NCBI RefSeq assembly: GCF_965641715.1
Contig: NZ_OZ282453.1
DNA: 64,000 nucleotides
From: Escherichia coli
GTDB lineage: Bacteria; Pseudomonadota; Gammaproteobacteria; Enterobacterales; Enterobacteriaceae
Reading direction: 5' to 3' (one strand)
Shown piece by piece: positions 15,001 to 18,000 of the stretch. How positions within the stretch are numbered: the first letter of the stretch is position 1; every line of letters begins with the position of its first letter. A program made the position numbers.

Positions 15001-18000
15001 TCGGCAAAAGCAAATGCATGCCCTGAAAGAGATAATTGCCAAACCGCGACTAACCGGCAGGGAATTTCATGATGTGCGAAAAATCATCAGCCAGCAGGTT
15101 TCTTATTACGACACCTTAAGATCGCTTGATCCTGAAAATAAAGAGGCGTTACAGATTTCCCGTTTCCTGGCCGCCATTAATGGCCTGATGGGGGATAAAC
15201 ACGACGACATGGTGGCGGATGATATGGAAAACCGCCAGTCGTATGATGCACCGGTGGCGCTGGATAGCGATATTCGTCAGCGCTTAGAGCTGCTGATTTC
15301 GCGTTTTCCGCTATAACCGGAGCAATGATGTCATCTCGTTTGATTATTGCGCTGATTATCATGCTCTTAGCCCCGGGTGTGCAGGCACACAATTTCGTCA
15401 CTGGCAAAACGGTTACCCCTGTTTATATTCAGGAAGGCGGCGAGCTGCTTCTGAATAGCGACGACGAAATTCACTACCAAAAGTGGAACAGCACACAATT
15501 GGCGGGAAAAGTCCGAATTATCCAGTATATCGCCGGGCGTAAGTCGGCGAAGAAAAAGAACTCACTGTTAATTAAAGCGGTTGAAGCGGCAAACTTTCCG
15601 CAGGATCGTTTTCAGCCCACCACCATTGTGAACACCGATGATGCCATCTTTGGTACTGGCTATTTTGTTGTTGGCAAAATCGAAAAAAATAAACGCCGCT
15701 ATCCGTGGGCGCAATTCGTTATTGATGGCAATGGGCTGGGACGCGTTGCCTGGCGCTTGCCGGAGCAGAGTTCAACCATTCTGGTGCTGAATAAAGCTGG
15801 GCAAATTCAGTGGGCAAAGGACGGCAGCCTGACGCCGGAAGAGGTAGATCATGTCATTGCGCTGGCGCAGAAACTGATCAATGAATAAAAAACTCAAAGG
15901 ATTGAGGGCGTTAGTGAGATGAAGCTGGTTGAACACTACATCATGCGTGGTACGCGCCGTCTGGTGCTGATTATCGTCGGTTTTCTGATCTTTATTTTCG
16001 CCAGCTACTCCGCACAGCGTTATCTGACCGAAGCGGCAAATGGGACATTAGCTCTTGATGTTGTGCTGGATATCGTTTTCTACAAAGTGCTGATTGCACT
16101 GGAGATGTTGTTACCTGTTGGTCTGTATGTGTCAGTTGGCGTGACGCTAGGGCAGATGTATACCGACTCGGAAATTACCGCTATCTCTGCGGCGGGGGGC
16201 AGTCCGGGACGCTTGTACAAAGCCGTTCTTTATCTGGCGATACCGCTAAGTATTTTTGTCACCCTTCTGTCGATGTATGGTCGTCCGTGGGCTTATGCGC
16301 AGATTTATCAACTGGAGCAGCAGTCGCAGTCGGAGCTGGATGTTCGCCAGTTGCGGGCAAAGAAATTTAACACTAACGATAACGGACGAATGATCCTTTC
16401 GCAGACGGTTGATCAGGATAATAATCGCCTGACTGACGCGCTGATTTATACTTCTACTGCCAATCGAACCCGCATTTTCCGCGCCCGTTCGGTTGATGTG
16501 GTTGACCCATCACCCGAGAAACCGACCGTTATGTTGCACAACGGCACTGCCTATCTTCTCGATCATCAGGGGCGTGACGACAACGAACAGATCTACCGTA
16601 ATCTGCAATTACATCTGAATCCGCTGGATCAAAGCCCTAACGTCAAACGCAAAGCGAAATCGGTCACGGAGCTGGCGCGCTCCGTCTTTCCAGCCGATCA
16701 TGCCGAACTGCAATGGCGACAAAGTCGTGGCCTGACAGCATTGTTGATGGCGCTGCTGGCCATTTCATTAAGTCGGGTAAAACCGCGGCAAGGGCGATTT
16801 TCAACATTATTGCCACTGACGTTGCTGTTTATTGCCATTTTTTATGGCGGCGACGTCTGCCGTACGCTGGTGGCTAACGGCGCAATTCCCCTCATTCCTG
16901 GTTTGTGGTTAGTACCCGGACTCATGCTAATGGGCCTGCTGATGCTGGTCGCACGCGACTTCTCTTTGCTGCAGAAATTTTCCCGATGAATGTTTTCAGT
17001 CGCTATTTAATCCGTCATCTCTTTCTCGGTTTTGCCGCCGCCGCAGGGCTATTGCTGCCGCTTTTTACCACCTTCAACCTGATTAACGAACTGGATGATG
17101 TCAGCCCGGGCGGTTATCGCTGGACTCAGGCGGTGCTGGTGGTGCTGATGACCTTACCGCGTACACTGGTCGAACTTTCGCCGTTTATCGCATTATTGGG
17201 AGGGATTGTTGGCCTGGGGCAGTTATCGAAAAACAGTGAGCTTACCGCCATTCGCAGCACTGGGTTTTCTATCTTCCGTATTGCACTGGTGGCGCTGGTT
17301 GCCGGGATATTGTGGACTGTTTCGTTAGGCGCGATAGATGAGTGGGTAGCGTCGCCATTGCAGCAACAGGCGCTGCAAATCAAATCGACCGCCACTGCGT
17401 TGGGGGAGGACGATGATATTACCGGCAATATGCTTTGGGCCAGGCGCGGTAATGAATTTGTAACGGTGAAATCGCTGAACGAGCAGGGCCAGCCGGTGGG
17501 CGTGGAGATATTTCATTATCGCGACGATCTCTCGCTCGAATCCTACATTTATGCACGCAGTGCCACCATTGAAGACGACAAAACGTGGGTCCTGCATGGT
17601 GTGAATCATAAAAAATGGCTGAATGGCAAAGAAACGCTGGAAACATTAGATAATCTTGCCTGGCAATCGGCCTTCACCAGTATGGATCTTGAAGAGCTAT
17701 CGATGCCGGGGAATACTTTTTCTGTCCGTCAGCTTAATCATTACATCCATTATTTGCAGGAAACCGGGCAACCCAGCAGCGAATACCGCCTTGCACTGTG
17801 GGAAAAACTGGGGCAACCCATCCTGACCCTGGCGATGATTTTGCTGGCTGTGCCGTTTACCTTTAGTGCCCCGCGCTCGCCAGGGATGGGTAGCCGTCTC
17901 GCTGTAGGCGTCATCGTTGGCTTACTCACCTGGATCAGCTATCAAATCATGGTCAATCTGGGATTGCTATTTGCGTTAAGCGCACCTGTTACCGCGCTCG

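What the first reader, a model, noticed from the sequence alone, without database searches (positions are those of the whole stretch)
15325..15888. YtfJ-family periplasmic paralog inside the lipid export operon
The protein has a cleavable signal peptide and conserved blocks that I recall from E. coli YtfJ, a periplasmic protein of unknown function. Its presence here gives the YtfJ family a functional context, possibly periplasmic lipid handling.
Basis: partly seen in the sequence, partly recalled or inferred. Interest (0 to 1): 0.4.

Follow-up and report, generated by a model that had tools for sequence, protein, structure and literature searches.

The report
YtfJ paralog in E. coli sphingolipid locus
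This is an intact gene for a secreted, redox-dead thioredoxin-fold protein of the uncharacterised YtfJ family; it always sits beside the LptF/LptG-like sphingolipid exporter genes in enterobacteria, which makes it a testable candidate for the unknown periplasmic step of bacterial sphingolipid export.

Summary
ORF 15325/15328..15888 (+) encodes a 186/187-aa protein that passes the curated cut-offs of PF09695 and TIGR01626. It is 54% identical to E. coli K-12 YtfJ over its full length and has a typical Sec signal peptide.

RefSeq already names it "YtfJ family protein". The region is in 4103 of 5426 complete E. coli genomes.

The "lipid export operon" is the transport half of the published enterobacterial sphingolipid locus:
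- yghT / yghS-yghR
- yghQ flippase, a CHAD-like ORF, ytfJ2, lptF2, lptG2
- facing spt-acpR-cerR-aasR and yghO

New here:
- In 88 enterobacterial loci, every YtfJ gene lies either in this locus type (45) or in the canonical ytfK/cysQ/cpdB site (43).
- The locus copy has eight fixed derived residues, three of them added lysines.
- The predicted fold (pLDDT 95) is TlpA/CcmG-like thioredoxin, but with no cysteine and no cis-proline.
- It is the only signal-peptide protein of the locus.
- Its divergence tracks LptG2 best.

A periplasmic accessory role in sphingolipid export is inferred, not shown. A hydrophobic lipid cavity is not supported by the fold. Moderate interest: a routine annotation that becomes a concrete lead for an open question.

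The parts
15325..15888 (+). ytfJ2: YtfJ-family (PF09695/TIGR01626) gene, 187 aa from ATG 15325 or 186 aa from ATG 15328 (the RefSeq start); stop codon included
15319..15322 (+). GGAG Shine-Dalgarno, 2 nt before ATG 15325 and 5 nt before ATG 15328
   Evidence: read directly from the sequence
15325..15387 (+). Sec signal peptide (residues 1-21). Predicted cleavage is VQA|H22; there is no lipobox Cys
   Evidence: all family members inspected have similar N-termini
15532..15540 (+). Invariant A70-G71-R72 at the end of strand 63-70. The following K73-S-A-K76 occupies the place of the CXXC motif of CcmG
15631..15642 (+). Family-wide N103-x-D105-D106 motif after strand 99-103
15769..15774 (+). S149-S150. 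S150 aligns with the cis-proline of ResA and CcmG
15683..15689 (+). A7 homopolymer. It is the site of a frameshifted 153-aa allele (P0105) seen on many public contigs; part of these are probably sequencing errors
13143..14492 (+). yghQ: MOP/Polysacc_synt-type flippase, first gene of the transport operon
14492..15316 (+). orf274: cytoplasmic all-helical protein with a CHAD-domain-like fold. It has no Pfam or NCBIfam hit
15919..16989 (+). lptF2: LptF paralog (TIGR04407, 318 bits)
16986..18065 (+). lptG2: LptG paralog (TIGR04408, 309 bits). Its start overlaps the lptF2 stop
18063..18097 (.). Hairpin with a 16-bp stem between the convergent lptG2 and spt genes; likely a bidirectional terminator
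18100..19272 (-). spt: serine palmitoyltransferase (NF047599, 599 bits)
   Evidence: the enzyme from E. coli BL21 was assayed in PMC9386255
19272..19520 (-). acpR: specialised acyl carrier protein
   Evidence: PMC9386255
19552..20466 (-). epi/cerR: NAD-dependent reductase
   Evidence: PMC9386255
20463..22151 (-). aasR: fatty acyl-AMP ligase / acyl-ACP synthetase. RefSeq start; the longest ORF runs to 22211
   Evidence: PMC9386255
22548..23690 (+). yghO: the predicted N-acyltransferase (aca/bCerS) of the dihydroceramide pathway
   Evidence: PMC9386255 Fig. 9 legend
10728..13097 (.). yghT (-, 10728..11420), yghS (+, 11594..12307) and yghR (+, 12339..13097): three thymidylate-kinase-like P-loop paralogs, conserved in the sphingolipid-type loci wherever the held DNA reaches that far upstream

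Best explanation
Shown. The ORF is an intact, probably translated gene for a Sec-exported, soluble periplasmic protein of the YtfJ family, here called YtfJ2. Its predicted fold is a TlpA/CcmG/ResA-type thioredoxin fold that cannot do thiol chemistry. It has no cysteine, K73-S-A-K76 stands where the CXXC motif would be, and S150 stands where the cis-proline would be. It is a locus-specific paralog of canonical ytfJ. It always sits in the order yghQ (MOP flippase), CHAD-like ORF, ytfJ2, lptF2, lptG2, within the enterobacterial sphingolipid locus.

Inferred. After the sphingolipid is made on the cytoplasmic face and flipped, YtfJ2 acts on the periplasmic side. It would work as an accessory, head-group-recognising or docking factor for the LptF2-LptG2 exporter. 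In Caulobacter that exporter is powered by LptB. YtfJ2 would use the conserved polar site on the old thioredoxin active-site face (R72, N103, D105, D106, S150). The lysines gained in this clade (K77, K118, K121) would engage an anionic partner, either a phosphorylated head group or an acidic surface of LptG2. In this reading it fills a role that LptC2 may fill in Caulobacter; lptC2 is absent from enterobacterial loci.
For: Identity.

Export: it is the only locus protein with a signal-peptide-like N-terminus.

Linkage: of 88 enterobacterial loci, 45 are sphingolipid-type and 43 canonical, with none mixed. Gene order is constant while the spt operon is inverted or moved in Serratia, Erwinia and 'Martelella' relative to E. 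coli and Citrobacter. P0135, only 41% identical, was placed in the sphingolipid clade by the tree and was then found in a complete locus of this type.

Derived subfamily: at eight fixed positions the canonical clade keeps the outgroup state and YtfJ2 differs, with three gained lysines. The mature net charge has a median of +5 against +2.

Coupling: YtfJ2 pairwise distances track LptG2 best. Pearson r is 0.87, the partial r is 0.45, the label-permutation p is 0.0005, and the pair ranks 4th of 55 protein pairs.

Literature: LptF2/G2 are genetically tied to sphingolipid export in Caulobacter. The periplasmic and outer-membrane components are stated to be unknown, and lptC2 is restricted to Caulobacter (bioRxiv 10.64898/2026.04.12.717747). 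Canonical ytfJ has a sigma-E promoter and is co-regulated with yhbN (lptA) (PMC4447067, PMC3022708).
Against: There is no experimental datum on YtfJ2 or on any YtfJ-family protein's activity.

The fold is not one known to carry lipids, and I could not examine the model's surface because no coordinates are returned.

Sphingolipid loci of Caulobacter and Sphingomonas are described without such a gene. The four distant family members found outside both enterobacterial locus types are stand-alone genes in unrelated contexts. Any role is therefore lineage-specific rather than a general part of the machinery.

Neighbour-joining bootstrap support for the clade split is weak (60/100).

The co-evolution signal is not phylogeny-corrected and is absent for LptF2 (partial r -0.05).

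Native production of a sphingolipid by E. coli, and the nature of its head group, are not established in the papers read.
Confidence: 0.4

Rival explanations
1. YtfJ2 is a periplasmic enzyme or maturation factor. It would use the invariant Arg/Asn/Asp/Asp/Ser cluster to modify or trim the sphingolipid head group after flipping, for example by phosphoryl or glycosyl transfer or hydrolysis, rather than acting as a transport accessory.
For: The invariant residues are polar and charged. By thioredoxin-fold topology they lie on three loops: after strand 63-70, after strand 99-103 and before strand 150-155. These loops converge on the classical catalytic face.

The locus also encodes phosphate-related proteins: three P-loop kinase-like proteins and a CHAD-like protein.

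In Caulobacter one sphingolipid step (CerR) is reported to be periplasmic (PMC11087976).
Against: No known catalytic motif was matched, and no hydrolase or transferase family was hit in Pfam or NCBIfam. The gene is placed with the transporter genes, not with the biosynthetic operon.
Confidence: 0.2
2. One reading: YtfJ2 is a soluble lipid carrier with a hydrophobic cavity that shuttles the sphingolipid across the periplasm, in the manner of LolA or MlaC.
For: It is a soluble periplasmic protein encoded next to a lipid exporter. The periplasmic carrier for sphingolipids is unknown.
Against: The model is a compact 165-residue thioredoxin fold. Its best structural matches are all oxidoreductases and peroxiredoxins, and none is a lipid carrier. 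The conserved residues are polar. LptFG-type exporters normally feed a beta-jellyroll bridge (LptC/LptA), not a shuttle; that last point is established Lpt knowledge, summarised.
Confidence: 0.1
3. YtfJ2 is a folding or stability factor, or a partner, for another periplasmic element of the pathway. Candidates are the periplasmic beta-jellyroll domains of LptF2/LptG2 or a periplasmic CerR. It would have no contact with the lipid itself.
For: Cys-less thioredoxin folds often serve as binding or chaperone modules (general knowledge). The co-evolution signal is with LptG2, with a weaker one for Epi/CerR (partial r 0.45 and 0.23).
Against: E. coli Epi/CerR shows no signal peptide. There is no direct interaction evidence.
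Confidence: 0.15
4. YtfJ2 is a redundant duplicate of the envelope-stress protein YtfJ that merely travels with the island and has no sphingolipid-specific role.
For: All family-wide invariant residues are retained. Fusion, deletion and frameshift alleles exist in the E. coli population. K-12 lives without the whole locus.
Against: Position and gene order are conserved in 45 of 45 loci, down to 41% identity and across a rearrangement of the neighbouring operon. Eight derived residues are fixed. A passenger gene would be expected to be lost or moved in some lineages.
Confidence: 0.1

Closest known systems
E. coli YtfJ (b4216) and the PF09695/TIGR01626 YtfJ_HI0045 family
   Same: Homology runs over the full length (54% identity). 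Both have a signal peptide, the same length, and all family-wide invariant residues: G39, W54, K62, A70-G71-R72, N103, D105, D106, D134, G137, W143, S150 and G167. Neither has a known function.
   Different: The genomic site differs: the sphingolipid locus rather than ytfK/paeA/cysQ/cpdB. Eight residues are fixed in a derived state (Y68, K77, F96, P98, K118, K121, A129, T151) and the protein is more basic. Canonical ytfJ has its own sigma-E promoter (PMC4447067), whereas this copy is embedded in an operon.
Periplasmic TlpA/CcmG(DsbE)/ResA thiol:disulfide oxidoreductases and AhpC/TSA peroxiredoxins
   Different: Sequence identity is 8-18%. There is no cysteine at all: CXXC is replaced by K-S-A-K and the cis-Pro by Ser. 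It cannot be a redox enzyme of this type.
LptC2 / LptF2 / LptG2 of the Caulobacter crescentus sphingolipid locus
   Same: YtfJ2 is encoded in a sphingolipid locus together with LptF and LptG paralogs. It is a non-ABC, non-permease extra component on the periplasmic side, and its role is inferred from context.
   Different: LptC2 is a membrane-anchored LptC homolog and YtfJ2 has an unrelated fold. Genetic evidence (deletion possible only without spt) exists for LptC2 and not for YtfJ2. lptC2 is reported only in Caulobacter; ytfJ2 was found here only in Enterobacterales.
The published E. coli BL21 / UTI89 sphingolipid gene cluster (aasR-epi-acpR-spt, yghO; lptF2-lptG2)
   Same: This window carries exactly that cluster.
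   Different: The papers read describe the five biosynthetic genes and draw lptF2/G2. The word ytfJ does not occur in the 2022 and 2026 papers searched for it. The role of yghQ, orf274, ytfJ2 and yghR/S/T is not addressed.

Membership tests
YtfJ family (Pfam PF09695 / NCBIfam TIGR01626) | Score above the curated whole-protein cut-offs of the family models | tested here: met
   PF09695 scores 200.2 bits against 24. TIGR01626 scores 213.5 bits against 151.1, covering model positions 1-183 of 184.
YtfJ family (Pfam PF09695 / NCBIfam TIGR01626) | Full-length similarity to the name-giving E. coli YtfJ | tested here: met
   54% identity, 74% positives, 184 aa, one gap, E 4e-76.
YtfJ family (Pfam PF09695 / NCBIfam TIGR01626) | N-terminal signal peptide and retention of the near-invariant family residues | tested here: met
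   Signal peptide. All of G39, W54, N103, G110, D134, G137, W143 and G167 are present.
Thioredoxin-like thiol:disulfide oxidoreductases (TlpA/CcmG/ResA type) | Thioredoxin-like fold with an N-terminal extension | tested here: met
   [not shown]
Thioredoxin-like thiol:disulfide oxidoreductases (TlpA/CcmG/ResA type) | CXXC (or at least one catalytic Cys) at the N-terminus of helix alpha-1 | tested here: not met
   The protein has zero cysteines. CcmG C80-P-T-C83 aligns with K73-S-A-K76. No cysteine is conserved across the family.
Thioredoxin-like thiol:disulfide oxidoreductases (TlpA/CcmG/ResA type) | cis-Proline loop opposite the active site | tested here: not met
   The cis-Pro of ResA and CcmG aligns with the invariant S150. 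Both alignments are weak in score but agree with each other.
Lpt periplasmic bridge components (LptC/LptA, OstA-type beta-jellyroll) | Beta-jellyroll fold or sequence homology to LptC/LptA | tested here: not met
   The model is alpha/beta thioredoxin-like with six helices. No Lpt protein appears among the 50-60 best matches listed, and there is no OstA Pfam hit.
Enterobacterial sphingolipid-locus transport module (yghQ, CHAD-like ORF, ytfJ2, lptF2, lptG2) | Conserved adjacency and gene order with lptF2/lptG2, with spt-acpR-epi-aasR nearby | tested here: met
   All 45 sphingolipid-type loci have orf274 upstream and/or lptF2-lptG2 downstream wherever the held DNA reaches (L033 ends before lptF2/G2; L051 begins inside ytfJ2). 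Most also have spt nearby.
Enterobacterial sphingolipid-locus transport module (yghQ, CHAD-like ORF, ytfJ2, lptF2, lptG2) | Functional requirement for sphingolipid export or maturation | not testable with these tools
   This needs genetics and lipidomics. Only indirect hints are available: the sole exported protein of the locus and the co-variation with LptG2.
Soluble periplasmic lipid carriers (LolA/MlaC-like) | A hydrophobic acyl-chain cavity | tested here: inconclusive
   The fold class argues against it and the conserved residues are polar.

The most novel reading that the evidence does not exclude
YtfJ-family proteins are a previously unrecognised class of periplasmic accessory factors for LptFG-type lipid exporters. 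In this reading YtfJ2 is the missing periplasmic component that recognises the anionic sphingolipid head group and docks on LptG2. It would replace LptC2 in enterobacteria. The sigma-E-controlled canonical YtfJ would do the equivalent job for LptFG and LPS.
Probability: 0.2. Interest if true: 0.7.

Novelty: new member of a known kind. Interest (0 to 1): 0.42.

Why it matters
How bacterial sphingolipids cross the periplasm is an open question. The 2026 Caulobacter study states that the components downstream of LptF2G2 are unknown and that LptC2 is confined to Caulobacter.

YtfJ2 is the only exported soluble protein encoded in the enterobacterial locus. It is strictly linked to lptF2-lptG2 and carries clade-specific changes next to its conserved site. 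That makes the question directly testable in genetically easy hosts such as E. coli B and UTI89, Serratia and Citrobacter.

It would also give a first functional handle on the YtfJ family, a sigma-E regulon member that has had no assigned function for decades.

If the gene proves dispensable, the finding reduces to a correct but routine annotation.

Tried and rejected
- **PDB sequence search, single protein:** only chance hits, E about 0.5.
- **The search for related loci with the 102-sequence alignment:** It was repeated with a 19-sequence alignment. Only the best 80 of 571 relatives were kept, all Enterobacterales, so the wider distribution rests on six spot checks: five distant members, none in an Lpt context, and P0135, which is.
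- **Biopython bootstrap:** timed out. A faster NJ bootstrap gave only 60/100 for monophyly of the sphingolipid clade, 46/100 for the canonical clade and 48/100 for the two together. I therefore rely on context and on the fixed derived residues rather than on the tree.
- **Promoter and terminator consensus scans:** counts equal to the shuffled expectation (15 against 15.1; 17 against 16.1). Only the 16-bp hairpin after lptG2 stands out.
- **Redox function:** rejected, because there is no Cys and no cis-Pro.
- **N-terminal His of the mature protein as a metal ligand:** considered and rejected, because the His is not conserved outside Enterobacterales.
- **Fused or linker complex prediction of YtfJ2 with LptF2/LptG2:** not run. 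The tool returns neither PAE nor coordinates, so an interface could not have been judged.
- **Frameshifted 153-aa allele as a lineage-specific pseudogene:** not established. Several carrier assemblies have many broken genes, which is typical of homopolymer sequencing errors.
- **Link between YghR/S/T and the Caulobacter ceramide kinase CpgB:** not supported by what I read. CpgB is a DAG-kinase-like (LCB5) protein, not a P-loop kinase.
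Full report

Yes. An ORF runs from 15325 to 15888 on the + strand. 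GGAG lies at 15319..15322, and two in-frame ATGs lie at 15325 and 15328. RefSeq uses the second, giving 186 aa.

The product matches Pfam PF09695 (YtfJ_HI0045) at E 2e-59, with 200 bits against a gathering score of 24. It matches NCBIfam TIGR01626 at 213.5 bits against a cut-off of 151, end to end.

I fetched K-12 ytfJ (b4216) from NC_000913.3. BLASTP gives 54% identity and 74% positives over 184 residues with one gap, E 4e-76.

The N-terminus is M(M)SSR-LIIALIIMLLA-PGVQA|HNF, a textbook Sec signal peptide with a small-x-small cleavage site. There is no cysteine, so the protein is not a lipoprotein. Among the 13 proteins of the locus it is the only one with such a segment and no further membrane span.

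**2. Where are we?**

The window is an Escherichia coli chromosome segment running hyb, gss, pitB, yghT/S/R/Q ... yghO, glc. The 3.7-kb stretch around the gene matches 4174 of 5426 complete E. coli genomes. 4103 of them cover at least 80% of it, at 95-99% identity.

RefSeq annotation of the best match lists, in order:
- pitB
- yghT (-)
- yghS
- a hypothetical protein (the yghR position)
- a "lipopolysaccharide biosynthesis protein" (the yghQ position)
- a hypothetical protein
- "YtfJ family protein" (WP_001298770.1)
- lptF and lptG
- then, on the other strand, spt, an acyl carrier protein, an NAD-dependent epimerase and a fatty acyl-AMP ligase
- then yghO and glcC

My own family scans agree. 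So the family assignment is already in public annotation.

The five biosynthetic genes (aasR, epi, acpR, spt and yghO/aca) of E. coli BL21 are described, and partly assayed, in PMC9386255. A 2026 preprint shows that the LptF2/LptG2 paralogs of the Caulobacter locus are needed when anionic sphingolipid is made. It also shows that they bind each other and LptB. It draws the E. coli UTI89 locus in its Fig. 2B. It states that the periplasmic and outer-membrane components are unknown and that lptC2 occurs only in Caulobacter. The word "ytfJ" occurs in neither paper.

**3. Operon structure**

- The yghQ stop overlaps the start of a 274-aa ORF at 14492.
- That ORF ends 8-11 nt before ytfJ2.
- ytfJ2 ends 30 nt before lptF2.
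- lptF2 and lptG2 overlap by 4 nt.

Consensus promoter and terminator scans are at the level of shuffled sequence. The exception is a hairpin with a 16-bp stem at 18063..18097, between the convergent lptG2 and spt genes. Co-transcription is therefore likely but not shown.

**4. Is the linkage more than synteny in one species?**

A homology search found many proteins that are 60-72% identical to the query, in Citrobacter, Pseudocitrobacter, Serratia, Erwinia, Pantoea, Klebsiella indica and others. That is closer to the query than E. coli's own YtfJ.

Their contigs show the same five-gene string: flippase, 27x-aa ORF, YtfJ, LptF, LptG. The three P-loop genes and the spt operon are alongside. In Serratia, Erwinia and "Martelella alba" the spt operon lies upstream on the same strand. 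In E. coli and Citrobacter it lies downstream and convergent.

A scan of one genome per species found 571 relatives and kept the best 80 loci. I searched all loci with tblastn, using the window's proteins and the K-12 neighbours of ytfJ as queries. Every YtfJ gene fell into one of two classes, with no mixed case (counts):
- 45 loci are sphingolipid-type. In every one, orf274 lies upstream and/or lptF2-lptG2 downstream, as far as the held DNA reaches (L033 ends before lptF2/G2; L051 begins inside ytfJ2). Most also have yghQ, spt and the rest nearby.
- 43 loci are canonical, with ytfK, paeA, cysQ, cpdB and msrA as neighbours.

Four genomes contribute one locus of each class, so these are true paralogs.

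Five more distant family members were checked. Four are stand-alone genes in unrelated neighbourhoods. One lies in a canonical tamAB-msrA-paeA-ytfK-ytfJ-cysQ-cpdB site.

P0135 is only 41% identical to the query. It had been put in as an outgroup but clustered inside the sphingolipid clade in the NJ tree. It then turned out to sit in a complete sphingolipid-type locus, which is a small blind confirmation.

**5. Relationship of the two clades**

NJ bootstrap support is weak: 60/100 for the sphingolipid clade, 46/100 for the canonical clade and 48/100 for the two together.

More telling are eight alignment positions that are fixed differently in the two clades. At each one the canonical clade shares the commonest outgroup residue and the sphingolipid clade is derived: Y68 (H), K77 (E), F96 (Y), P98 (T), K118 (S), K121 (S), A129 (S) and T151 (A). 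Three of these changes add lysines. The mature proteins of the locus clade have a median net charge of +5 and pI 9.4, against +2 and 8.8.

All family-wide invariant residues are retained. I read this as a specialised offshoot of YtfJ that keeps the family's core site but has altered its surroundings.

**6. What kind of protein is it?**

With a 102-sequence alignment, AlphaFold2 gives a confident model with mean pLDDT 95.2 and pTM 0.88.

Two independent but weak profile alignments were made: the family profile against ResA (E 0.05) and against E. coli CcmG (hhalign E 0.007). They agree on these correspondences:
- CcmG's W79-C80-P-T-C83 corresponds to R72-K73-S74-A75-K76.
- The cis-proline corresponds to the invariant S150.

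The protein has no cysteine and the family has no conserved one. It is therefore a redox-dead thioredoxin fold.

The invariant residues sit in three places: after strand 63-70 (A70-G71-R72), after strand 99-103 (N103-x-D105-D106) and before strand 150-155 (S150). By the known topology of the fold, these three loops converge on the classical active-site face. This is an inference from topology, because I had no coordinates.

Three of the clade-specific residues (Y68, K77, T151) flank these motifs.

The conserved site is polar and charged.

**7. Hints about partners**

On 35 non-redundant loci I compared pairwise distance matrices of 11 locus proteins.
- YtfJ2 correlates best with LptG2 (r 0.87).
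- After regressing out the mean of the other proteins, the partial r is 0.45. The label-permutation p is 0.0005, and the pair ranks 4th of 55 pairs.
- The value for LptF2 is -0.05.

This is exploratory and not corrected for phylogeny.

For canonical ytfJ, the literature notes a sigma-E-recognised promoter (PMC4447067). It also reports ppGpp-dependent expression together with yhbN (= lptA) in Salmonella (PMC3022708). Both fit an envelope-biogenesis role for the family, but neither says what the protein does.

**8. Most likely mechanism**

Shown: an exported, soluble, Cys-less thioredoxin-fold protein that is strictly linked to lptF2-lptG2 in enterobacterial sphingolipid loci, as a derived and more basic subfamily.

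Inferred: it acts in the periplasm as an accessory factor of the LptF2G2 exporter. It would bind the polar, probably anionic, head group or dock on LptG2, at the step where Caulobacter may use LptC2. I give this about 0.4.

| Rival | Confidence |
|---|---|
| Periplasmic head-group-modifying enzyme | 0.2 |
| Folding or partner factor for LptF2G2 or CerR | 0.15 |
| Cavity-type lipid shuttle | 0.1 |
| Functionally redundant passenger | 0.1 |

**9. Comparison with known families**

It is a member of the YtfJ family; all defining features tested were met. It works on a thioredoxin scaffold but is not a thiol:disulfide oxidoreductase, because CXXC and cis-Pro were tested and not met. It is not an LptA/LptC homolog.

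**10. Novelty and score**

The gene, its family name and the locus are all public. What I did not find in the literature searched is any mention of this gene, of its strict linkage to lptF2G2, or of its being a distinct subfamily.

It is a new member (a context-defined subfamily) of a known but uncharacterised family. Its interest is moderate. The annotation itself is routine, but it yields a concrete, cheap-to-test candidate for a stated open question in bacterial sphingolipid transport.

Noticed in passing
[not shown]
   Followed up: partly
window 10728..13097 (yghT -, yghS +, yghR +): Three thymidylate-kinase-like P-loop paralogs flank the operon and are conserved wherever the held DNA reaches them. 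RefSeq calls two of them 'dTMP kinase', which is unlikely to be their role here. In the exploratory distance-matrix comparison, YghT gives the strongest residual correlations of all 55 pairs: 0.65 with LptF2 and 0.55 with LptG2. This comparison is not phylogeny-corrected.
   Followed up: partly
window 15683..15689: An A7 run lies inside ytfJ2. A frameshifted 153-aa product (P0105) starting at this run is recorded on at least 120 contigs. Several carrier assemblies have many broken neighbouring genes, which suggests long-read homopolymer errors. One metagenome scaffold (L096) has only this lesion.
   Followed up: partly
proteins P0121, P0127, P0019 (E. coli contigs; correspond to window 9180..18065): Public E. 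coli sequences include in-frame fusion products that imply internal deletions of the locus. They are PitB(1-~211)::YtfJ2 (391 aa), YtfJ2(1-89)::LptF2 (404 aa) and YtfJ2(1-~143)::LptG2 C-terminus (275 aa). The locus appears to be decaying in some strains. About 1250 of the 5426 complete genomes have no match to this segment.
   Followed up: no
window 18063..18097: A perfect-looking hairpin with a 16-bp stem (10 GC pairs) sits in the 34-nt gap between the convergent lptG2 and spt genes. It is probably a bidirectional terminator.
   Followed up: no
locus L093/L094 (metagenome contigs): A third context for an enterobacterial-like YtfJ homolog (P0132, 44% identity): a stand-alone gene immediately upstream of a carotenoid (crt) cluster comprising polyprenyl synthase, glycosyltransferase, lycopene cyclase, phytoene desaturase and phytoene synthase.
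   Followed up: no
window 33603..38183 (+) and downstream to about 49700: A 1526-aa ORF is followed by a run of same-strand ORFs. I did not examine them; they lie outside the finding.
   Followed up: no
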